This document shows, piece after piece, positions 17,377 to 38,786 of a stretch of 38,934 nt of DNA. Each line of letters opens with the position of its first letter. The stretch's first letter is position 1. The notes under the pieces were generated by a model that did not search any database, was not told the origin of the DNA, and saw only the letters and a program-made list of their open reading frames with translations. This stretch comes from Paramecium tetraurelia (lineage: Eukaryota). Made by a program: the position numbers and the translations under genes. The stretch is from assembly GCA_000165425.1 (NCBI GenBank), contig CT868208.1, positions 496,001-534,934 on the forward strand, given 5' to 3'.

Positions 17377-19616
17377 TCATGTCATCTTTCTTATCTTTAT
17401 GGCATTCGAGAAAATATTTTTAGATAGATCCTTTTTATATGTTGCAGATGAGATTCTAAGCTTGGAACTAAATGATTTTACTAGGGTTGGAGTCTAAAAA
17501 ACTTCACTAGCCTTTTTTCTCATAGACATCTATTTGGTATATTCTTCATTGACGTATGGCACTTGCTCGGGGTCAAGTTTACCAGATACTATATCAGAAA
17601 TAACTCTAATTTATTCCTCTTATTCAACGATTTGCTAATCGAAATCTTTAAATTTCTAAAATGTTATTTTATAAATACTGGTTTTTCCACAGGTTTATAA
17701 TTGATGGAGGTAACAAAATTGAATTTAAGTTATTTTTTGCCATCCTTAATTTCATAAGCATCATCTTTTGAAACTTTTTCTATAATATCTACTATCTCTC
17801 CTTCCTCATTTACATACTAATTATATTTACAAGTAATGTAACCTTTAGCAATCATCTAAAGTACCTATAATCGTTTTTGCATTTTCTTTAATTATTTGAG
17901 AAAGTATTCTTTTCTTAATTGATTATCTGTTTTGCTTCTGGGTTCAAGTTCAAAAAAATTCCCAATATTTTCTTATTATTTTTTCATGAGAAGTTCATAT
18001 TCACTGTTTAATTACTTGGAGTAATTTGAAGATGCTTCCATAAAGTTGAGATTTTGATATTTAACATGAGAAGCATAACTTTTGATTGCATTGTAGAATT
18101 ATTCTTTGAGTTCTTGATTTCTTCTACTCGAATTACCTCCCCAGTTGATAACTTCATCATTTACAACATTTTGGGTTTTGACAAAATTATCCAATTGAAC
18201 TTCTGGTTATTCATTGGTTGTTAGTTCAAAATTAAAATGGGAAGATATTTTAGTGCTTTTAACATTTGGATTTATTATTTTCTACAAGACTCTTCTTTTG
18301 GGTTATTACTCACTATTTTTAGGATAATTATCTGCTAACTTTGTTTATGCATTTGTATGTGTTTTCTCAAAGGATAAATTTTTATTTGAATGTTACGCTT
18401 TGCATGTTTGATGTTAAAAGAATTGATTAAATTATTAGGTATTTTGGATAATTAAAGAATTAGGCAGAATTTTAGATTTTTATTACTTAATCCCTTTATT
18501 TGATTTTAATTGATTGCTAATGTTTTTGGGATTAAATTCAGTCTCCTATAATTGAAAATTCAATTTGCAAGTACTAATCTCTTCTAAATAGGCTAAGTGA
18601 GCTTTTAGTTCTTCTGTATTAATTGGTTATTTAGACAATTCAACAAATCTCTTCAATCTGAAAATCCATTTCTCTCCAATAAGGAGAAATAATATGTTCC
18701 TTGACTCTCTTTGCCAAACTTTCTTCTCGAATTCTACATTTGAAATTCTAAATAACATTGCTGAATCACAAAGACACTTAATATTAAAATACCTTTTATC
18801 ATAATTCAAAAAGCTCTCTTCTCCAAAGACTTCTCCCTCAGCTAATCTAGTCAATTAATGTTCAGTTTAGTTCTCATCTCTTTTTGTGAGTGAAAATTCT
18901 CCCTTAAAAACAAAGTATGCCCAATCGCATTCCTAATCGCCTTCTTAATAGATTGTTTCATTTTTCTAAGGTTTGATAACTTCTAATTTGTATGCGAAAT
19001 ATTTAATTTCATTATCGGAGAATTGTTAAATGTAGGTGAGCTGTTTCAGAAATGCTATTTTTTCATTATTTTCACTCGATTTGATATTTGAGTTTAACTC
19101 GATGATAAATTTAAAATCTAGACAGGCTACATCTGTTTGTCTTAGTGTAACTGCAGTAGATTTCTAAACATCCTGTAAGCCAAATTCATTGAATGATTAT
19201 CCAAATGTCATTTCAGAGACTTGAGAATATTGTTGAATATCCGAAATATCTGTGAAAGTCTTTGGTTTGGTGGAGTCAAGTTCTTAGGTTACTAATACTC
19301 TACCACTTAGGATGATGTAGGTGGTTCTGTTAACTGATATATTCTAATTAGGCCCAAATGTTTTTAAATAAAGGTGTTTGCATAGTTGTTTCATAAAATC
19401 TGCATTGTATTTGGCTTTTATTTTCTCAAAATATTGAAAACAAGACATATATTCTATTATCTGTGAGAAATCTTATTCGGTTCTAGATAAATAATCTTTT
19501 TATAAAACTTATTTTATTTTTGAGATATCTTGAGGTTGATTGCCAATCTTTGATAAAATATTAGAGGCTGAGATAATATGAACAGCATGTTAAAGTAATT
19601 GAGATTTGCTTTTCAT
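17377..19616 (-). CDS. Tandem cyclic-nucleotide-binding (cNMP) domain protein with long low-complexity C-terminus
   Basis: N-terminal RTEQDFSQIIEYMSCFQYF. Domain A: YIILSGRV..GQSFNEFGL. Domain B: IYQEGD..AYFVFKGEF..LAEGEVFGEESFLNYDKRYFNIKC. One 23-nt intron at ~17656-17678. TGA at 17377-17379. Confidence 0.85.
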
Positions 19617-25419: not shown

Positions 25420-28400
25420 ATGTCTAATAAGGGAGAATCTTTAAAATTTGGATAGGTGATCTCAATAAGTCCATTAGCCAATTAATCCCTTTTTGTCTAT
25501 AGCGACGGATTAGTTAAAACGGATGCCAAGGTAATTGTAGAGAAATAAGATTAGTTAGTCGAAATATCGCCTGACATAATGGCTGCAGGTTCACTCTATT
25601 ACTACAGTTTGTATAGAATTTACCCTGATTTCATTACAACCAAATTGCAAATGGCTATAAATTTTAAAGAAGAAACCATGCAGGATGATAATTCAAAAAA
25701 AATGTAGAAACTCAAAGATCTCCAAACCAAAGTACAAATCTAAACTTAACAATAGATTATAGCAGATTATAAATCGAACATAGATGTTTCAACCAAATAT
25801 AAGGATAAGCCATTATCCTTCAATAATTTAATTTAGTTTATGCATGTAGCAACAAATCGATTTTTGTCTTTATCTAGTAAGGAAGCAAAGGACGAAAAGG
25901 AAAACTTTCGCTTGGAACTAGTAGAATATCCTTCCTCAAAAACGGTATTTCAATTATAACCTGCCTTCGTACATTAAAAGGAATCGAATTCAGAAGTTTA
26001 TGCAGGCGATAGTGTATATATCATGTGTGATCACATTTATTTGGGAATCAAGCCGAAACTAAGAGCCACACTTAAGTACGGTGTTATGGATACATATGAG
26101 TATCTACAGGATAGATCTATCTACGCAGTTCCCAATTTAAAATTGCTCAAGAAAATGACAGACCAACTAGCACAATAATAGGATGTCTTAGAAATCACTC
26201 CAACTATTCAGAAATTCTAGAAAGTCGCCAGTTTAGCCAAAGGGTAAAGCATTCGAAGACAAACAACATGTAAATTTGAGTGCTAAATTATTTAGTAAAA
26301 TAAGAAGAAGAAGTAAAGCCTGTCGGGTAAACGAGTGAAGTCAATATTTCATTGGAACATCAGAGTCCTTGGGTATTAACGGTGTTCTGTAATTAAAATG
26401 ACAATGAACAAATTATAAGTTTTAATGATGTTATATGGATTCATCATATTGAAGAAAATTCACTTTTAACTTTGGGTAGAAATCAGGATAATGAACTAAT
26501 AATAACATTTTAGAAATAGTCAAATGAATAATAGAGCGAATTTAATGGCGACTCCAATGGAATGTTTTAAATTGAAAATGAAGATCTAAACAAAGGAGGA
26601 TTAGTTGAATGGGGTTAGAGTCTGAGGTTGAGACATTTCATTCTTGGCAAATATTTAGCAATAAATTATGAACCAATAAAATCGGGTTAATTGTTGTTAT
26701 ACTTATCTGATCAACCCACACCCAATACTCTATTCTAATTTTTAGCAGTACCAACTATGGGATCCAATACAGTAAGCTAGAAATATGTCACTAAAGATGC
26801 CTTTATGAAGATGAAAGCAGTGGGTAAATCCTCATAATGGGTACATCTAGAATAAAAAAAAATTGTAATTCAATATCTATATATGTTATTAGTTATAAGC
26901 AAATAGTAAATACAAGGACACTGTTGTTGAGGAAGATAAATCAGTAATTGTTATTAGATTAACTGATAATACTGAGGATGATGACGTATTGAAATTGTAC
27001 AAGGCAAATTATAGTGATGTTCTAGAAACAAACTTTCTAATTACAGGTTTCCCAGTTCTTAGAAGAGGATTAACTAAACTCAAATCCAATAAAGATATGA
27101 CTAAGGAGGCACAGAAATAACAAATGATCAAAACATATAAGAAATTAACTACTACTATTGAAAAGTTAGAAAAGTTTTGTAAAAATTCTTTAATCAACAC
27201 TTAACTTGATATTAAAAACACCAAAGTGGCGATATTATAGAGATAGAAAATACTAAGAGAATAATACTTCATTGATCTCCTAATAGAAATTATGAAATAA
27301 ATTACAAACGAAGATGAATTAAGATAATATAGTGAGTATTAGTTAGCCCAGCATAAGGCAGCTTTAGAAAAGCAGACGAAGACTACACTTGCTGTTTCTT
27401 AGAGATCTCATATTGGTTCAGATATCAGTCCCTTAAGAGCAAAAGATTCACAAATAAATTCCTTAAGTATTGTATGACTCTATTATTTTCAGATTAAATT
27501 GCAGTTGGGAGATCGGCAGCTAGTTAGTTAGTTTCATCCCATCAAATATAATCTTAGCAAAGAACTTAAGCAAGAAAAAAGAAAATGGAAATGGCATTTT
27601 TGTCTGAAAAAATGAGTGTGCTAAAAGTTATATATCGATTGCTTAGAAGCATTTGTTAGGACAATCCAGAGAACTAATTTTATATTTACAAATTGTTTCC
27701 AAACTTTCTCTATTAAATCAAGTATTTCAAAGAAGCAACTGATTGTATCATAACAGTTCTTAGTGGTAATGAACAAATTTTAATCAATTTGTGTGATCAT
27801 ATTAAATTAAATGAGAAATTAAAAGCTCGACAATAAGTGGATAGTGATGAGTCCTAATTATCAGATGAAATGGATATTCAATTTAATTCATCTGCTGATG
27901 AAAAGAAAAATATATTATTATATTATAAAAATTTGACAGAAGATAGTTAAGGATAAAGGAATATTCAATATTTATAATTTTTCAGATGCATATGCAGATT
28001 AAATGACTAAAGTATATCTGTAAATTAAGAAATGATATTCAAATTTATCAAACAAAATGAAAATTTTAAGGGTTCTTTGTTTATGCCAATCATCATGTAA
28101 TTATCTTTAATATTCTTAGTGAATCCACCAAAATGAAAATATGTGTAGATTAAACACAAATTGCATACATTACCAGTATCAAAGAGTAAATAATTATATA
28201 TTATCGTAGTCCTTTAATTTAAAATTATTTAATAGAATAATTATTTTTATATGCAGATTTGGCATATTAGCGAAACTTTTTGTGGAAATCTTATTTGGAA
28301 CGTATCTTTCCAACCCAATTTGTATTTAATTAAATTTTTGACGAAGACAAAGATTAAAGCAAGTAAAGTTTAGGTAATTCTGATTAAGTATTTGACAAAT

Positions 28401-31400
28401 CAATGTAAATCAATTATAAGTCAGCATTCTGCAACATGGCAATAACAAGTAATAAATCACTAAAATCTAGTATTTGTCGACCATGAGCCCTTCAACAAAG
28501 CAATTGTTCCTAACTTATGTAGATTATATACAGAAACAAAACCAATTTCAAAAAGTGTTTAATCAACTAATAAACTGACCAAATTAGCATCCACATATAC
28601 TCCCCTAGTTGACAAGACCTTTAAATTTTTAAATGATCTTTATGATTAAATAAATCTGGATCTAGATTACAAAAAGGAGTAAGCAAGAACCAAAGGCTAA
28701 TTAATAAACTAAGACCCTGACGATAAAAAGAGGTAAGCAAGAACCAAAGATTAATAAAATGATCAAGACTCCTTTATCAATCCATTGGTACTTGATATTA
28801 CTAAATTAATCTCCATAATGATTAGATTTGACATGCTTAAAATAATGAAAAAAGAAGAATTGTATGTTAATATTGTACCCAAACTCATTTCCCTTTTAGA
28901 ATATGACAAAAATAACATGCTATATTCATATATACTTAAATCAGTCAGAGAATCAAAAATTAAAAAGGCAACTGAAGGAATCAATTTAAATGTGATAGGA
29001 AAAGTAACTGCACAATCTTAATTTACAAAACTGGCTAAAGACTTAGCATCATCTATTCTAGGAATTCCACCAAAATAATAAGGTTCATTAGAGGATGAAT
29101 TTTCAGATTATGATACAACTGTTATTGCCAGAAATCCAATAGTTTCTAGTCTTATCTCCATAATCACTTATATGGACACTCTTGGAGTCTAAGAGACAAA
29201 CTCAAAAAATTAGAGTTAATAATAAATACAAAATAACTTCGAAATTGAAATTTAAAAAGAAGTGTGTGGAATCCTTTTATACTTTTAGGATCAAAGATAA
29301 GATTTTTACGTCTCAAACTTTATTTAGTTTTATAAGAACTTCACAAATAAGTTTCAATAATTTAGTTGGAATAATACATTATTAAAGGATAAGTTTTTAA
29401 AAGACTTAGAGTCTGAATTGGTGCAAGCCTTACCACCATTTTTAAAGACTGGAATTGAAGCCATAGATAAATAAGCATAAACCAGCATAGAGGCCATATA
29501 TAAATCGAATGATATGAATGAACTAATTGGAGTAGGAAATCTACTGGCACAATAAAAGAAATTTTAGATCTAAAATCCATAATTAACTGAGACTATGGAT
29601 CTGGATAAATTGACATGTGGAGAATCATAGGCTGAACTCTAACTATTGCCTACCTTAATTGTAACATTTTTTGTCACAAATGACTTTGGATTGTAAAATG
29701 AACTTATTGAATTAATGAGAAGGTCCTTCTCCCAAGTTTCTGAAATGATGTATCACTTAAACAGAATTGAATTACTATTTGATAAGGTAGAGATTGGTTG
29801 TTATCAATTTCTAGAAGTTTCAATATAAGAATTAAAAGTAATTACTGAATGTTCTGAAGTTTGGTTGGTTGATTTCTTAGCATCTCCACAAGGAGAAGTC
29901 AAAGAAATCCAAAAGATCCTAAAGATATTGGCAGATTTGCAATTATTATTGAAACAAGGCACATCCATTGATCATAAAAGTAGAGTTATTAATGGAACTG
30001 ATTAAATATCAGTATCTAGATAAAAAATATTTAACTTCTTAAATGCCTATGAACCTTTACTGAATTTCATAAGAGATACTCAATAACAATTAGTAAAGGT
30101 TTTGGATGATCCATTTTATTCAATGGAGACTAAGAGCTACGTTATCCAACTATTGAAGGCATTATTTGCTTTACTAACAGATTTTTGTGATAAAAATGAT
30201 GAAAATTAAAAAATTATGCATAAAAATGCAAGTCTATTTATGGATGAATTATAACATGACTATGGATAAATGAATTTGTTAAGTGCAATATATAGAGATA
30301 ATAAATAATTATGTTAAAAAATTGATGAGATTTTATTAAAAAAAATAAAATCATTTATCTATGCATATGGAAGATAAGCAAGATTTCTCCACTTATATAA
30401 AAATATTTAAACCTATAAGAACAACCCAATTATTGAGGTATAAACTAAAGTACTTCAATTGTTTATTCCATAACACATCAGCACAGAGGATTATACAGAT
30501 ATCAACGAATTTTATCTTTATGGTGAATTCAAAGCAATTGATGGTAGAAAAGTACTTGAATTCACATTTGAAAGATCACTAGAAACTAAATTGAGTGATC
30601 AACCATTTCTTTATCATAGTGAAATACTGTAGGTCTTATTAGCCACAATTATTGGTGAGGAGAGCTTTAAAATAAATTCTCCTAAATTAAAAAAATTATT
30701 TAAATTACATTATTTGCTTGAATTATTATTACAGCCAGATGATTTTTTATCGGAAGAAGCAAACATTTTGGAAGGATTGGTTGACGTTAATCTGGGTATG
30801 GTTAATGGTATAAAGCACATAAAGCCACAAATTATTGAAATGGCAAATCTATTATATGTGAATAATAAGGTCACAGACTTATATTTATTCATTAAAGAAT
30901 AACATAAATTTACTGAGTTCTTTGCTTAAGAAAAAGGCAGATTAGTTAAAATATAATCATTACAAGGTGATTTCGATTAATACTTGTAATACTTTTTTGA
31001 TTATGTGATTGTTTTGATGAAATATTATTCAAAAAAAGTCATTACAAAAGATTCAGGTTCAGAATATAGAGAAAGATCAGATTATATGGAATTAAAAGAT
31101 ATCATGAACATCATTTTAGGAATGTGCAATACATTGATTCAGCATAAGTTAAAAGTGAATTAATATAATAATTTAGTAGAGTTTGTTCATTCACTTGATG
31201 AATAGACTCTAACTGATAATGCAGGATAGATATCTTAGTCACTATAATAACAAGAATTTGCTAAACCTTAAGTCGAGGAAGAAAATTAAACAATTTTCAC
31301 TTAAAAAAAAAAGGATTCTCCATTAATTCACAATGATAAGGACGAAAAATTAAAACGGACTAATAATAAAACTGATATTGATTAACTAAATTAGGAAATT

Positions 31401-34400
31401 GTAGATTGGAATACAAAAAAAGCTTGGGAAAAATTCTTAGAAGAATGTTAATCACTTTAATCGACAAAAAAAACACAATCTATTGAAATGAGAATCTTAA
31501 GTCAAACATTTTAAGAAGTGCATAAATTTATACCTGATGCTATGATCAAAGAATTAGGTTTGTAAAACTTTTGCTTTAAGGATTTTCTAAAAAAATTAAT
31601 CCGATTTATCGAGGTAGGTATTATTAATAAAGCGAATAAATCGAATTTAATATATACATTATAACTTTTAGAAGATATTTTAGATTCAAAAGAAGATTTA
31701 GAAAAAATTCAAAATGAGTTTGATTCATGCTAAGCTACAAGAATGTTTTTAAATTTATTAGCTGACTTTTAGGTTTATCCTTTTGATGATGATCTCTTAA
31801 TATAATTATTTAAATTTGCTTTAAAGCTAAGTAAAAATGGTAATCAAAGAATACAAACTACTGTATTTAATTATTTTAGTAATTTTGAAAAATCTGAGAT
31901 GATCTTTTTAAAAATGAATCAAATTATTTATGAAGTAATTAATGAAAATAAAAAAACATAATAAGTATTGATGCAATAAAAAAGCTAAAAAGATAAGGAT
32001 TAACATTAAAAATAACTTTATTTGTCTAGTATTTAAGAGTAATAAAATGAAGATGAATCTACCTCAAAAGAAGCTTAAGATGCTAGAAGAAGTAAAATGA
32101 GTATACTAATCTATTTGCTGAAATACTTTTAATTAATATGTGAAGGTCACAATTTATAAATCTAAAACTATCTTAGATAGCAATACAATAGTAGAAACAA
32201 TTATAATATTGTCTAAGCTATGGTTGAATTATTATGCGCTTTTGAAAATGATTTGTAAAGAGATTCTTTTGAAGTGATTATGAACACATTAGAAACATTG
32301 ACAGAACTTGTCTAAGGTCCTTGTTCACAAAACCAATAGGATATTATTGATTCGTTATTTTTAGATGTTGCATCTAATTATTTAAATATGCATATTGAAT
32401 CAAAGAAAAAAAAAGATTAGGATGGAGTTTAAGAAAAAGAAGAACATTCTATTAGAGAAAGATCAAATTCATTGCAGTCTAAAAGTACTGCAAAAGCAGG
32501 TGCAAAAGTTAAAACAATTTAAATTGATAGATGGATGTTAGAAAGATTAAAATATAAGTGCATGGTTTTAGTAAGTTCTTTGTTAGAGTTAAACTCAGAT
32601 ACGAATGCTATTAAACGAATTCTAAGATCCTTGCCAATTAATGTGCTTAAAAAGAACTTAATTATAATTTACAAAAAGCATTAAAAAATGTACAAAAAAT
32701 TAGGATACAATAAAGAATCATTAGGACATGTAATTATTTATATTAATAGTATAGCTTGAAGAAAATCCTCATGATTCAACAAAACCTCCTGAATATCATG
32801 AATTAATTTTAGAAACTGGATTTTTGATTTACTTTTTAATCAATCATTATGCAAATTTGGATACAAAAGAAATAGATCCAGCAACTAGAGATGAACTTGA
32901 GGAAATAAAAGAAAGTCAAAAAAATTCTGATAAAGAAGATCCTTGGGCTTAGTTATAAAATTCTCTTATTGGTTAATTGGCGAGCTTAGTGTTTTCTTTA
33001 GTTGGAGGAATTTTAGAAATGATAAATGAATGGAGAGAGTATGCTTAATAATAATTAATGAAATAATTTAAAGGTAAAGAAAGTGCAGAAGAGGAAGAAA
33101 AACGAAAGGCAGCAAAGAAATTAGCTGCTCAATAGCTGTTTAATGATAGTATCACTTTTTTTTAAAAAAATTCTGCTACTGTTGAAGTTATTAGGGAATA
33201 GTAAATAGAAAAAATCATTTTCTATAAATTATCTTTTTGTAACTACTTACCTTAAGAAACTAAAACTGAGTTTCATGAAACTGTAGATAGAGATTCTACT
33301 AATTCTAAAGTGAGTGCTCTAGTTGAAAATATGCCAAATTTCATGGATGTTGCTAAACATGAAGAAGAACTTACACAATTTTTTAATTAGAATAAGTTTG
33401 TAGCTTTATTTGCAAAGTATGTTATTTTGTGGAAAGACTTATGCTTTTTATTGACTCTAGTGTTAAACGTATTTATTGTTCTTTCTTACTATGAAGGGGA
33501 TTCTGATGATCCAGATTAAAGATTTTACGATAGATTAAATTCACCAAAATTTTTAAAAATGTTATCTGTTGAGGAGACAATGTCAATTTTTCGATATTGT
33601 GGAATTGGCATGATTGTTTGTTCGTGCTTTGTTGTTTCGTTTTTTATTCTTAAGAAGGGACCATTGTATGTTAAAGAAGCTTGGAATCAAAGTAAGGATT
33701 TAATCAAGGAGGATCAAATTTGGATTATTAGATTCTTTTTAAAGTTGTATATGGTTGGTTTTTGTTTGGTTAAGGTGTTATTGAACATAGATATGATCTA
33801 TTATTTGGCTTATGGTGTTTTGGCTTTCATTGCAACTTTGGTTCACCCGTTCTTTTTTGCTTTTCATTTAAGTGAAGTGGTCTTAAGATATCCCACACTT
33901 AGAAATATTATAAAATCTTTTTGGGAACCCAAAGTGGCTTTAGGTTTGACATTCATTTTGGTATTGTTAATGAATTACTACTTCACTCTGATGGCATACT
34001 TATTGTTTTACGATATATACACAAATGGTATGATAATCATAATATTTAGGAAAATGTGATTCGTTATTAGTGTGTTTCCTTTCGACGTTTGATTATGCAT
34101 TTAAAAATAATGGAGGTATAGGAGGTTGGTTTGATGGAAATTTTCCATAAGATCCAGCAAATTATAGTTATGGCAGATTTTTCTTCGATTAATTGAATAA
34201 TATCCTCATTCAGATGATTAGTATTTAAATATTTTCTGGTATTATTATTGATACATTTGGTGAATTAAGAGAATAGCAATTAGCTAAAGAGGATGATAAA
34301 GAAAATATTTGCTTTATTTGTGGTCTTGACAGAGAAATTTTTGATATGAAATCCGATGATGGATTTAATAAACATATCAAATAAAGTCATTATATGTGGA

Positions 34401-34691
34401 ATTATGTTTTTTATATGGCTTACATGGATAACAAAAATAAAAGTGAATATAATGGAATAGAAACCTATATCGCAAATAAAAGAAAAAATTAAGATAATTC
34501 TTGGTTCCCTATTGGGTAGTCATTAGAACTTCAAGAAGAATTAGAAGATTAATAAATGATTGAGGAAAGGAAGATATAATCTTTATAATTAAGAGTAATA
34601 AATATTAATATTGTAGATTGATGGAATTAAATAATAGAGCGAAAAAGTACTCTAGATTTTAAATGATATCTAAGAATAAGTAGGTTAATGA
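25420..34691 (+). CDS. IP3 receptor/ryanodine receptor superfamily Ca2+-release channel (IP3R-type architecture, ~3000 aa)
   Basis: N-terminal suppressor-like LKFGQVISI..SDG, MIR GGLVEWGQSLRLRHF..GKYLA, RQKILREQ, SAFCNMAITIFVDHEP, RIH-associated LICEGHNLQIQNYLRQQ and LTELVQGPCSQNQ, TM region, pore NNGGIGG, gate IFSGIIIDTFGELRE, CFICGLDR, HYMWNY and WFPIG. About 8-10 small introns. TGA at 34689-34691. Confidence 0.96.
28671..28772 (+). repeat. Imperfect in-frame 54-bp tandem duplication inside the IP3R-like CDS
   Basis: Units start at 28671 and 28725. The 17-mer GTAAGCAAGAACCAAAG is identical at 28679-28695 and 28733-28749. Protein units are KKEQARTKGQLINQDPDD and KKRQARTKDQQNDQDS. Confidence 0.85.
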
Positions 34692-34788: not shown

Positions 34789-37517
34789 TCACTTGACTTT
34801 TTAAAGCTATCTGTATCTAATCTGAAGTTTCATTTTTTCATCTTCAATGGCTAATCTTTAGCCCAACTTTAAAAGGGATTATGAGACCTTCTCAGATCTC
34901 AGTTATTTTTCAGAATTCCTCAATCTACAATGCTCGACCATAGAAGAGTTCTCAAATATCAATTAAGCAGGTTGTTATTCAGACTTTTCTAACAGATGTT
35001 CTTCAGGATGAAGCATCTCCTTTGTAAGACCTATTTATGACTAATTACCCTTTTGAGTTTTGTGCAAATTTAAATTATTTTAGGGAGAGTTTGTGCTTCT
35101 GAAAGAGGAATTATAATCAAATTTATCAGAATGAACCGATTTATGTAGAGATCCTACTAAAGAGGCAGATCTATTTTCATAAATATCTTGTTATTAACTC
35201 ACAACTTGAGATTCTTTAACACCATCTTTCAACTTTTGCTGCGAAGTTTTACTTTAATTTAATTTTCTATCTTAGTAAAATATAAATACGGCTAACTGTA
35301 CTAGCTCTGATTATGCAAGATTTAAGATCCTTTTTAGGTCTTCGAATCTTGACCTGGAACTTTCAATGCTACATTTTGATGAGAAACACTTAAATTTGGA
35401 ACTTCAAATTGAGCATTCCATAATTCTTATTTGGGAATTTTTTCAAACAAATTTAAAATTTTTTCTTTTTCTACTCCTTTTCTGTATACATTTGATAATG
35501 ATGGAAATAAATTTACTAAACTATCAAAAATCTTAAAGATCTACACAGTTGTTAATATTTGATCTGATGAGTTTTGTTGTTGTTCTTGTGTAAAAACCTA
35601 AGCCGAAACCAAAATTTCATCTAGAAAAATAATCTATTTAATTTACTTCTGAAACATTTGATAATAACCTTTTAGTCACTCCACTTTCTCTTTTAATCAT
35701 CCATAACCTAGACAGGAGATAATTTGGCAATTTTCTCGCCTCTCCAGACATCATACAATCTTACTTCTGACTCAGCATCTTATACAACTGCTATTCCTGA
35801 ACTGCTTACGGCTAATGACATTATTCTCCATAATCCTTGCTTTTATTCATCATAGTTTATTTTTGTTCCTTTGCGGAATTAATTTGTTCTTTTGCACAAC
35901 GTAATCCCTTCAATCGTATTATAAATATGGATGCTCCCATCATAAGAACAGCTAACTATTCTCTCATTCTCACAAAATTCTATATGGCTTACAATAGTTT
36001 AATGTTTATCAAGATAAAATCTTTCCTATTAGAAAACCAAATCATATATTAGAATTGACCCTTACTATAATCCTAAGCCTAACAACGAAAAATTTTTAGA
36101 GACGGCTAAACAAGATAGTGGGTATATCAATGGAATTTCAATTAATCGGGTTTCATTTTTTTTATTAATTATTGGTAATTGAAATTTCATTTCTTATTCT
36201 TAAGTAAACTATGCGATAAGATATTATGGTAAATTATTTCTCTTTGGTTAATTAAAGTAATGAAGTTCTAATTTTGTTGTGTTTGACCATCCAACTACTA
36301 TACCAACAACAACTTCAAATTATTTAAACTATGAAATATAACAATGATTACCTTGTCAAAGGCCTTTTATCCGTTTTAAACGTTAACTGTCTCATGTATA
36401 AAAGCAAAATATGGCTTAAATTTTTATATGGGATATTCCTCACTTATATCATAACCATCTTTAATCTGATGCTTAATTATTAGTTGGTTATTATTTTCTT
36501 CTAAACCTGATTCTTCTTTTACTTATTGAATTACTTCCTATTTCTTTTATGGTTAAGCATTAGGTTATTATTTTTTTTTATCTTCTTTCACTTCAACTTC
36601 TTTTGGGAGATTTTATTCTTTAAATGAATTTATGATTTCATTAAATTTTTATTCTTTCTTTAATCCTTAAAATTTAATCTGATAAAATAGCTCAGTAATT
36701 TCAGTTACTGCAACATCAGTTTATGGATTTAATGGGATTTATTGTTTCAACTATTCTTTTGTAGCCTGTTACTTTTAATTTTACAGCGGAGGCAATAGAG
36801 TATTCTAATTCTACTATGATGTTGCCTATGTTGGCTGTTATGATTCCACCTTTAATTCAGGTATTTTATAAATAACCACATTACCATTATATTAAGTTAT
36901 TAATATATATTGCGAATACTTGCTGATTTCTATATCCATAGGAAGCTCACCAATACCAGTTGCATTTTTAGTGACTTATATAAAATGGATTTAGCTGATT
37001 TTGTTCTCTCCTGGTTTATATTTGAATATTTGTACTACTGGATCTAAGTGACTTATTACTCCGATTCTAAAAATGGTGGAAACTGTTACATGCAAATATT
37101 TTTTTATTCATCATTCGCTCCATCTCTAATTCCTAAGCAAACTTTATTTATTCTTTTTGGGCTGACCTCTTTTTTACAAATTTTCGTTTTCTTACTCATG
37201 TCTAATATAAAAATGTTTCCTTGTAAATCTCCTGCTGCAATTTGTAAATTCGAGCTATTTGAGCTTATAGATGTAATATTCGAAATGTCAAAAATACCCT
37301 AAGGAGGCAATGTTCTCAAGGGACCTTCATAATTTGGATCCGACCTGTATTTTTCAATTAAGAACACCTTCGAATATACTTCCAAAAGAATATCCTTTTA
37401 GATGATTTTATTAATGAATCTTGAAGCTAAATGTTATCATTACCTAAAGGGCTCAGGTAATTTATCAACAAAATTGTTTGGATTGCAAAAATCCCAATCA
37501 TTCAACTAATCGTTCAT
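34789..37517 (-). CDS. WD40-repeat protein, WDR93 (CFAP297)-like
   Basis: N-terminal DWDF..FVDKLPEPFRFINKII resembles the WDR93 DQLPQPYRMINK motif. WD blades include LGLQQGSILIYD and RIVSCSYDGSIHIYN. The first intron (24 nt) carries an in-frame TGA. TGA at 34789-34791. Confidence 0.78.
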
Positions 37518-38786
37518 AATAATTTATTATAATATATTTTATTCATCAATAATTTTAATTCAAACTACTAGCCTGCCAACTCGTATGTTGCCTAATTATA
37601 ATGTTGAATTACTTAATACAAAGTTGTATAGTCCAAGAGCTGCCTTTTAAATTTTTTTGAAATGTATTAATAACAATCTGAACAAGCTTTATCTTTAGCA
37701 ACTAATTCAATAATTTATTAAGATAAATCATCGAAATCCATTATTTCATCCAAAGGTTTTTGTTAAGTTTTATCAATTAGACTCATCTGTTATTATTGCA
37801 TATAAAATAAGCTCGCTGCTAAATCGATATCAAAATCTAGTTTCTATCTAAGCCAAATTAACTAATTTTATATTCCTTCTTGTTGTTATTTGTACAATTT
37901 TAAATTCTATAATTATTCTTTTAGATTAGCAATATCATTTCTATGTTCTTTCATCAATTAAATTGCAAATTTTGATACTTACATCTAAATTTGGTTTTCT
38001 TATTTTAATTATAACCCACTAGGTCCAAGAACTGCTTAAGAGTTTAATGGAATTGGAGAGGTAACTATGTTCTTGTTAACAACATCTTTCACTTGTTTAT
38101 CAATTTCAACTTTATCAGTAATCTCCTCATTGTTATCCTTTTAATCTGTTTGTCTTTATTTATCCATTTAAATTGGATCATTTGAAAAATATTATTATTA
38201 TTTTTTTTGCTTATGATATGGAAAGTGATTTGTTAATAATTCTTTAGCTTCTTAAAACACTCTTTACAAATTTTAATGATTAAACCAAAGCTTGGCTTCT
38301 GTAAGGTAAGTGTTTAAAGATATCCATTTTTCACCTTAAGATGAATGAAAAAAGGATGATAATTTTATGTCCTTATCTAAAAAAGTTAAATTTATTAGTT
38401 ACCATCAAGACTTTTATTTTCTATACAAATGTCGAAAATTTGTTAAGGGTAATTTAAAAAAAAAGAAAAATTCATAACTATTTAAAAGGATTTCTACTTT
38501 ATCAATATATTAACAAACCCAGAAATTCTCAAAATAGATTCATCTGCACTAATTAATTATACTATCTACCTTAAATATATATGTCTATATTATCATTGCA
38601 GAATTCATTAATAATGAATGTTGCATCTTATATTAATTTCTCTGGGTATTAAAAAAATTCATTCATATTGATTAATGAAGTCATCTAAGATAACTTTTGA
38701 GATCTTTTTGGAACTTCTGTCTCAGCTTATTATTAAGTATCGTTTTAACTTTAAGGGTAGATTAAGTTTAATATTCTTTAATACAT
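37514..38786 (-). CDS. TSG101/Vps23-like ESCRT-I subunit (UEV domain, coiled coil, Vps23 core)
   Basis: UEV-like LRISGFVNILIKQKSFQIVMNFSFFLNYPQ and a central coiled coil. C-terminal LDEIMDFDDLSQQIIELVAKDKACSDCYQYISKKFKRQLLDYTTLYQ|ATYELAGQQFELKLLMNKI aligns with the Vps23 core/SB pattern. Three small introns. TGA at 37514-37516. Confidence 0.75.

What the first reader, a model, noticed from the sequence alone, without database searches (positions are those of the whole stretch)
37490..37560. Operon-like ATGA stop/start overlap joining Vps23-like and WDR93-like genes
Seen: the minus strand reads ...AAT AAA TTA TTA TGA ACG ATT AG. The Vps23-like TGA (37516-37514) overlaps the WDR93-like ATG (37517-37515), leaving no intergenic DNA. 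Both ends are anchored by family motifs. The Vps23 core ends QQFELKLLMNKI-YYNKLL*, and the WDR93-like DKLPEPFRFINK motif starts 16 codons after this ATG, with the next in-frame ATG far downstream of it. Known: ATGA overlaps typify translational coupling in prokaryotes and termination-reinitiation in some viruses, and are not expected between monocistronic nuclear genes. Inference: there are three options. (a) A bicistronic mRNA with reinitiation. (b) The downstream promoter/TSS lies inside the upstream CDS while the upstream 3'UTR lies inside the downstream CDS. (c) The upstream gene lost its stop and, since TAA/TAG encode Gln, extended through G-poor spacer DNA to the first available TGA, the one in the neighbour's ATGA.
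Basis: partly seen in the sequence, partly recalled or inferred. Interest (0 to 1): 0.8.

Follow-up and report, generated by a model that had tools for sequence, protein, structure and literature searches.

The report
Overlapping stop-start gene junction in Paramecium
Two unrelated Paramecium nuclear genes are packed so tightly that the stop codon of one overlaps the start codon of the next, most likely because each still makes its own mRNA with the second gene's start site lying inside the first gene's last codons, and gene-prediction programs hide such junctions by inventing introns.

Summary
The ATGA overlap is real (P. tetraurelia; TGA 37516-14, ATG 37517-15). The upstream end is fixed by a complete Vps23 core, an ungapped match to human TSG101 and two orthologs; the downstream start is the only ATG before a motif conserved across distant homologs. 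Public models in four species each sacrifice one end, in three different ways. The last 26 coding bases are pure A/T (0 of 456 gene ends, 24 of 456 gene starts) and coincide with where Paramecium transcription starts (-26 to -11). No TURBS motif or structure was found; in P. sonneborni the two genes are annotated on different scaffolds. Best reading: two separately capped mRNAs with overlapping ends, not an operon (0.72). Stop-loss extension is not needed: the tail has family length. RNA reads (140) show both genes expressed but do not cover the junction, so a dicistronic RNA and a competing 28-nt intron remain open. New: a 869-kb sample gave 2-3 further ATGA junctions among 243 tandem pairs (CDPK to farnesyltransferase alpha; Cdc6-like to unknown, kept in an old paralog pair), all mis-modelled by a no-overlap gene finder, implying roughly 170-250 (20-720) genome-wide.

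The parts
37514..38786 (-). Vps23-core (TSG101-like C-terminus) gene, about 397 codons; introns 38569-38544, 38402-38377, 37612-37592
   Evidence: Start and first two introns from own gene model reproducing public protein P0026; end from Pfam 7-64/64, PDB 6vme_B ungapped (with the pentaurelia ortholog), orthologs P0002 and P0025
37592..37612 (-). 21-nt last intron (GTA...TAG), in frame, no stop
   Evidence: Removal gives the ortholog sequence YQ-ATYEL and the TSG101 spacing; used in the primaurelia model; not seen in RNA reads
37592..37619 (-). Competing 28-nt intron of the public model, giving an off-frame end with TGA at 37548-37546
   Evidence: P0026, P0024; preferred by about 11 log units ab initio; truncates Vps23_core to 7-42/64; donor G is A in primaurelia
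37544..37546 (-). Nearest upstream ATG (-29; Met of LMNKI in the Vps23 frame); a WD40 mRNA starting above it would carry a uORF ending on the ATGA
   Evidence: Sequence; consequence is inference
37518..37543 (-). 26 bases of pure A/T coding for the Vps23 tail; inferred transcription-start zone and 5' leader of the WD40 gene
   Evidence: 0 of 456 gene ends vs 24 of 456 gene starts have this; P. tetraurelia starts lie at -26 to -11 (10.64898/2026.09.19.752804); start site itself not mapped here
37514..37517 (-). ATGA: last base of Leu codon plus Vps23 TGA = WD40 ATG plus first base of codon 2
37444..37513 (-). Rest of WD40 exon 1; inferred to double as the Vps23 3' UTR (median 44 nt would end near 37470)
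   Evidence: UTR median from PMC5485702; composition is coding-like, 13 G+C in 44 against 6.6 for ordinary 3' flanks; poly(A) site not observed
34789..37517 (-). WD40 (WDR93-like) gene, 869 aa; introns 37443-37420, 37089-37067, 36351-36329, 35646-35621, 35289-35267
   Evidence: P0003, own model of the same length, structure match to WDR93 cluster TM 0.47/0.59, N-terminal motif conserved in distant homologs

Best explanation
Two unrelated genes are each transcribed into their own capped mRNA, and the transcription units overlap. The WD40 mRNA starts about 9-28 bases above its ATG, inside the last nine Vps23 codons, which are written in A/T only and so serve as start zone and 5' leader; the Vps23 mRNA ends inside the WD40 first exon or shortly beyond. 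Each mRNA is read from its first AUG by ordinary scanning; the ATGA needs no ribosome hand-over. It is the end point of spacer loss in a genome with 19-nt leaders and 44-nt trailers: any TGA preceded by A is a ready-made ATG, so -4 is the natural landing place. Shown: both coding ends, the overlap, the composition signal, expression of both genes, further cases. Inferred: position of cap and poly(A) sites, monocistronic translation, the route of origin.
For: Both ends anchored. Pure A/T tail unlike any of 456 gene ends, like 24 of 456 starts (Fisher p 9e-8); the three other junctions have 2-4 G+C in the 26 bases before ATG. Published start sites at -26 to -11, peaks -9, -11, -18 fall in this tract and below the -29 upstream ATG. 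Median UTRs 19 and 44 nt and the statement that genes sometimes overlap (PMC5485702); 60 of 244 modelled tandem gaps are under 60 nt, so overlapping units are routine. Separability: sonneborni orthologs are annotated on different scaffolds; three WD40 paralogs start at the same residue behind an ordinary A/T leader; at another junction the upstream copy is intact while the downstream copy has decayed. No TGGGA upstream, fold z -0.24 to +0.47. Read depth falls towards the junction from both sides, weakly.
Against: No cap or poly(A) site was observed; no listed joints or ends. The 44 bases after the stop are coding-like, not a typical A/T-rich trailer, so where the Vps23 mRNA ends is unexplained and read-through RNA is possible. 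The depth dip is not diagnostic: an equally empty stretch lies inside the Vps23 gene (38384-38647) and only 140 reads were laid. The sonneborni argument rests on annotation. The ab initio model prefers the 28-nt intron. Exact -4 conservation in other species could not be read from DNA.
Confidence: 0.72

Rival explanations
1. In P. tetraurelia the Vps23 mRNA mostly uses the 28-nt intron (donor 37619), ends at TGA 37548-46 and leaves an ordinary 28-nt spacer, as in the public model; the coding overlap would be absent or a minor isoform in this species.
For: Both donors are GTA; 28-nt introns are far commoner than 21-nt (103 vs 12 among my modelled introns) and this path scores about 11 log units higher; 28 nt lies in the normal gap range; octaurelia is annotated the same way.
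Against: It removes the last helix of the core (Pfam 7-42 vs 7-64; TSG101 alignment). The donor does not exist in primaurelia, and 8 of 9 visible differences to primaurelia, including 3 of 3 in the last exon, are explained by single changes silent in the Vps23 frame. The last exon is 24 of 25 identical to pentaurelia in the Vps23 frame against about 77% for the rest. The single last-exon difference to octaurelia is silent in the Vps23 frame and not in the annotated one (my reading of the codons).
Confidence: 0.1
2. A dicistronic mRNA is made and ribosomes that finish Vps23 reinitiate on the overlapping AUG (translational coupling), supplying all or much of the WD40 protein.
For: Geometry equals the AUGA of caliciviruses and influenza B (PMC10275272 passages). 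No ordinary trailer follows the stop. The two genes have similar mean depth, about 5.4 and 5.6 summed over three runs (my sums). At the Cdc6-like junction 35 bases around the ATGA are identical between paralogs of about 50% protein identity. Public models conflict at this junction in four species.
Against: No TURBS motif or structure. ESCRT-I-type and WD40 proteins have no evident link; the other pairs are equally unrelated. Genes appear separable. The A/T tract is what a separate start site predicts, and dual use as promoter and coding DNA explains the conservation. No read covers 37526-37591 in any of three runs, though depth is patchy.
Confidence: 0.09
3. Origin by stop loss: the Vps23 gene lost its TGA (a change to TAA gives Gln in this code) and ran through a G-poor spacer to the neighbour's ATGA. 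This concerns origin and is compatible with separate mRNAs.
For: Read-through of 61 short tandem gaps would land at exactly -4 in 11, against 13 spread over all non-negative gaps; tails at all four junctions are A/T-rich; two of them have TAA codons just before the stop.
Against: No extension is visible: 6 residues after the core here and in sonneborni, 5, 5 and 6 in three paralogs, at least 8 in TSG101; the CDPK case ends 1 residue after a complete EF hand. Deletion of the spacer with capture of the latent ATG fits as well: the overlapped WD40 orthologs begin MND/MKD, one residue longer than the MD of the paralogs, though distant homologs have variable N-termini.
Confidence: 0.25
4. Assembly error or a single fused/frameshifted gene.
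For: The assembly is an early one and an A-run differs by one base at a paralogous junction; raw reads do not cover the site.
Against: Eight contig sets hold 0.99 of sampled words; five species give two separate proteins with matching ends; WD40 paralogs and many distant homologs are free-standing.
Confidence: 0.02

Closest known systems
[quoted passage not shown]
   Same: Unrelated neighbours; transcription signals moved into the adjacent gene; a transcript carries one whole ORF and part of the next; not operons
   Different: Free-living ciliate with 40,000 intron-containing genes; here the coding sequences themselves overlap by a fixed 4 bases on one strand; transcript ends not mapped here
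Overlapping UTRs of neighbouring Paramecium genes (PMC5485702; promoter elements overlapping the upstream 3' UTR suggested in 10.64898/2026.09.19.752804)
   Same: Same organism, tiny UTRs, overlapping transcription units
   Different: Those texts, in the parts I read, describe UTR or promoter overlap, not stop-start codon overlap with the start site inside coding DNA
ATGA translational coupling in bacteria and archaea (PMC6728339, abstract start only)
   Same: Identical -4 geometry, and the same built-in bias that ATG+A contains a TGA
   Different: No polycistronic transcript shown, cap-dependent scanning, spliced genes, unrelated functions
TURBS termination-reinitiation of caliciviruses and influenza B (PMC10275272 passages)
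   Same: AUGA overlap after a long ORF on eukaryotic ribosomes
   Different: No rRNA-complementary motif or structure found upstream; an A/T start-like tract instead

Membership tests
Vps23/TSG101 core-containing proteins | Vps23_core (SB) domain at the C-terminus | tested here: met
   PF09454 39.2 bits, cut-off 26.8, 7-64/64; ortholog aligns ungapped to 6vme_B, E 0.059
Vps23/TSG101 core-containing proteins | N-terminal UEV domain (full TSG101 architecture; feature recalled) | tested here: inconclusive
   No UEV family listed for full-length orthologs at E up to 1; no fold test run
WDR93 | Match to PF21030 or WDR93 fold | tested here: inconclusive
   No PF21030 hit by sequence; predicted-structure match to a WDR93 cluster, TM 0.47/0.59 over 487 residues, meets the Atlas bar for a name
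Overlapping monocistronic transcription units of compact eukaryotes | Downstream start site inside the upstream gene | tested here: inconclusive
   Composition and published start-site range fit; no cap data available (Cap-seq table too large to read)
Overlapping monocistronic transcription units of compact eukaryotes | Upstream poly(A) site inside the downstream gene | tested here: inconclusive
   Required by geometry, but no loose ends listed and the flank is coding-like
Overlapping monocistronic transcription units of compact eukaryotes | Functionally unrelated, separable neighbours | tested here: met
   Different families; different scaffolds in sonneborni by annotation
TURBS termination-reinitiation | Stop and start within about 20 nt, out of frame | tested here: met
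   -4 overlap
TURBS termination-reinitiation | Upstream motif complementary to 18S rRNA (UGGGA, motif letters recalled) | tested here: not met
   Only TGGGA in 37401-37720 lies at 37496, downstream of the stop
TURBS termination-reinitiation | Structured RNA upstream of the stop | tested here: not met
   z -0.24, +0.47, -0.88 for three stretches
TURBS termination-reinitiation | Both ORFs on one mRNA | tested here: inconclusive
   58-base reads, no depth at 37526-37591 in three runs, patchy coverage
Prokaryotic-type translational coupling | Downstream translation depends on upstream termination | not testable with these tools
   Needs reporter or ribosome profiling

The most novel reading that the evidence does not exclude
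Paramecium nuclear genomes carry a hidden class of some hundreds of ATGA-joined gene pairs, and at some of them the upstream mRNA, lacking a normal trailer, runs through the neighbour and ribosomes reinitiate on the overlapping AUG without a TURBS, giving bacterial-style translational coupling between spliced nuclear genes.
Probability: 0.09. Interest if true: 0.88.

Novelty: new variant of a known kind. Interest (0 to 1): 0.52.

Why it matters
It shows how far a eukaryotic Pol II gene boundary can shrink: about 70 bases would act at once as coding DNA of two genes, start zone of one and 3' end of the other. Because promoter and poly(A) signals of Paramecium are still undefined, such junctions are natural minimal test pieces: whatever signals exist must be written into codons. 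Practically, about 1% of tandem junctions may be mis-annotated, with truncated EF hands, Vps23 cores and Cdc6-like ends in public proteomes and invented introns in intron statistics. It also offers a neutral route to the -4 peak without translational coupling, a useful null for the prokaryotic case.

Tried and rejected
RNA lay: 140 reads from three oligo-dT runs, all from minus-strand RNA; no joints, ends or loose ends listed; the contig run X4 laid nothing. No holder on record as RNA was listed. Metagenome scan for relatives' DNA found 41 pattern matches, none confirmed, so other species' junction DNA was not seen. No recent duplicate of either gene: the sister scaffold C94 ends before this region. 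My gene finder with overlaps allowed at a flat prior did not recover the index case and gave 3 overlaps of 245, two being split genes and one unverified; with a strong overlap bonus it gave 226 mostly spurious splits, output cut and not used. Of 8 junctions with an alternative end in -40..+10 I accepted the index and three others, dropped C25:409872 (split gene) and the pair C25:475322/C147:286243 (current short last exon conserved), and left C147:344455 untested. 54 of 1099 introns and 3 of 21 junctions flagged for fused or mis-started models showed no convincing further case on inspection by eye only. A +1 gap behind an older paralog on C4 was dropped: the ORF there has no alignment to the C102 downstream gene. 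Ortholog distances could not tell whether the sonneborni copies are reciprocal survivors of the duplication. PDB searches gave only generic WD40 hits and nothing useful for the Cdc6-like end. One search was an uninformative self-comparison. Earlier-finding look-ups gave nothing for this genome or sequence and only bacterial ATGA repeats.

Full report
Setting. The window is the last 38.9 kb of contig C225 of a 72,094,543-base, 697-contig genome, the size given for P. tetraurelia in Table 1 of PMC5485702; the window's proteins are public P. tetraurelia records. Code 6 applies: TGA is the only stop.

Observation. On the minus strand TGA 37516-37514 overlaps ATG 37517-37515. Upstream, the frame ending there matches Vps23_core over positions 7-64 of 64. 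Downstream, the ATG opens the 869-aa WD40 protein P0003; the frame has no other ATG from the previous TGA to Met99, three paralogs in this genome start at the same place, and distant homologs conserve the D-x-L-N-x-W-x-x-C-N-P motif from residue 3 (pattern read off by eye). The WDR93 label rests on a predicted-structure match only (no PF21030 hit).

The public Vps23 model (P0026) uses a 28-nt intron and ends off frame 28 bases before the ATG. My self-trained gene finder reproduces both public models and prefers that path by about 11 log units. Homology says otherwise. A 21-nt intron with the same acceptor yields the ending seen in pentaurelia (NKIYYNKLT) and sonneborni (NKIYFNQQQ) and aligns without gaps to human TSG101, whereas the public ending loses a third of the domain. 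The off-frame primaurelia model lets its DNA be read indirectly: 8 of 9 visible differences are single changes silent in the Vps23 frame, and the 28-nt donor G is an A there. In the four species where the genes have neighbouring accessions, the annotation sacrifices one end each time, in three different ways: off-frame Vps23 ends in tetraurelia, octaurelia and primaurelia, an off-frame WD40 start in pentaurelia. That pattern is what a conserved overlap would produce in a predictor that forbids it; the exact gap in those species was not seen. Which donor P. tetraurelia uses was not observed.

Background. I fetched 869 kb, including three duplicated scaffold pairs, and modelled 244 tandem junctions: median gap 142 nt, 60 under 60 nt, none under 13; the 58 junctions with both ends supported by a paralog start at 23 nt. 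With median 5' and 3' UTRs of 19 and 44 nt, overlap of transcription units is routine, but coding overlap lies outside the modelled range. The model is blind to it, so I re-examined the 64 junctions with a last intron near the stop. This exposed further ATGA junctions. (1) C147:417115: a calcium-dependent kinase whose fourth EF hand is complete only without the invented intron (EF-hand_1 2-29/29 ending at residue 270 of 271), followed by farnesyltransferase alpha matched to solved structures from residue 6. (2) C36:448710: a Cdc6-like gene (Cdc6_C weak, below cut-off) followed by a 192-aa unknown; an older paralog pair on C65, about 50% identical in protein, keeps both genes and 35 identical bases across the junction, with one A fewer in a run just upstream as assembled. 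(3) C102:347018: upstream frame confirmed by a 79% identical copy on C657 that also ends on ATGA while its downstream copy has decayed; the downstream start is less well anchored. That is 2-3 of 243 unselected junctions, 0.8-1.2% (95% range 0.1-3.6%), or about 170-250 (20-720) of the 20,233 tandem pairs counted in PMC8997360. The sample contains duplicated regions, and the method finds only one kind of mis-model.

Mechanism. The 26 bases before the WD40 ATG are pure A/T: 0 of 456 modelled gene ends, 24 of 456 starts. P. tetraurelia transcription starts lie mostly at -26 to -11 in A/T-rich DNA, and the nearest upstream ATG is at -29, so a start in this tract makes the WD40 AUG the first on its mRNA. 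The other three junctions have 2-4 G+C in the same 26 bases. Nothing points to reinitiation: no TGGGA upstream, no unusual folding, unrelated partners in every pair, and the sonneborni orthologs annotated on different scaffolds with no second copy found. RNA reads show both genes transcribed from the minus strand at similar low depth, with near-zero depth at 37394-37657; but 140 short reads, and an equally empty stretch inside the Vps23 gene, make this weak. Against the tidy picture, the 44 bases after the stop are coding-like (13 G+C against a mean of 6.6), so the Vps23 poly(A) site is unexplained and read-through RNA remains possible.

Origin. An A precedes the stop at 111 of 244 junctions and the resulting ATG is in frame and open at 19; read-through of 61 short gaps would stop at -4 in 11. 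So -4 is a mutational sink from either side, with no selection for coupling required. At this locus the tail is not lengthened (6 residues; paralogs 5, 5, 6; TSG101 at least 8), so plain stop loss is not needed; spacer deletion with capture of the latent ATG fits equally. This step is inference.

Comparison and novelty. It works like the overlapping transcription of microsporidia (PMC2474625 passages) and extends the UTR overlaps noted for Paramecium to the coding level. It fails two TURBS features (definition from PMC10275272 passages). Six searches turned up no report of stop-start codon overlaps in Paramecium; subscription papers, ParameciumDB's later annotation and unread supplements could hold one. 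Papers seen: PMC5485702 parts 1-2 of 6 and its supplement list; 10.64898/2026.09.19.752804 parts 1-4 of 6, supplements closed; passages of PMC8997361, PMC8997360, PMC10275272, PMC2474625, PMC11334263; abstract start of PMC6728339.

Verdict. Real, probably conserved, one of a small hidden class, most likely two overlapping monocistronic units rather than an operon. New variant of a known kind; interest 0.52.

Noticed in passing
G000:C147:415667-418049 (L076:7115-7118): ATGA junction between a calcium-dependent protein kinase and farnesyltransferase alpha; a no-overlap model cuts the last EF hand with an invented intron; upstream ATGs at -14 and -17 would force a start site within about 11 bases of the ATG
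   Followed up: yes
G000:C36:448707-448710 (L089) and G000:C65:64304-64307 (L114): ATGA junction Cdc6-like gene to 192-aa unknown, 35 bases identical in an old paralog pair; the C65 copy has one A fewer in a run (assembly error or a shift to a -14 overlap)
   Followed up: yes
G000:C102:347015-347018 (L094) and G000:C657:61055-61058 (L116): Probable fourth ATGA junction; the sister copy keeps the upstream gene and the ATGA while the downstream gene has decayed
   Followed up: partly
window 19613-19616 (-): Latent ATGA: the stop of a 194-aa gene is in frame and open to the next gene, which would gain 56 N-terminal residues; no paralog to test
   Followed up: partly
G000:C25:475322 and C147:286243: A 103-nt tandem spacer conserved without indels between duplicated scaffolds
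   Followed up: partly
window 25420-34691 (+): 3018-aa gene with motifs of an IP3/ryanodine-type calcium-release channel (name recalled, no family hit on the one fragment tested), convergent with the WD40 gene across 97 bases
   Followed up: no
window about 16000-38934: No recent-duplication sister found: the sister scaffold C94 ends at 84,216 and the window is itself a scaffold end
   Followed up: partly
proteins P0018, P0019 versus P0011, P0012, P0020, P0021: A WD40 paralog is annotated fused to a C-terminal HIT-type protein in two species and as a separate 111-aa neighbour in others, another sign of very tight junctions or fusion errors
   Followed up: no
G000:C94:75996 and C225:461996: Genes split by apparent frameshifts relative to their duplicates (pseudogenes or assembly errors)
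   Followed up: no
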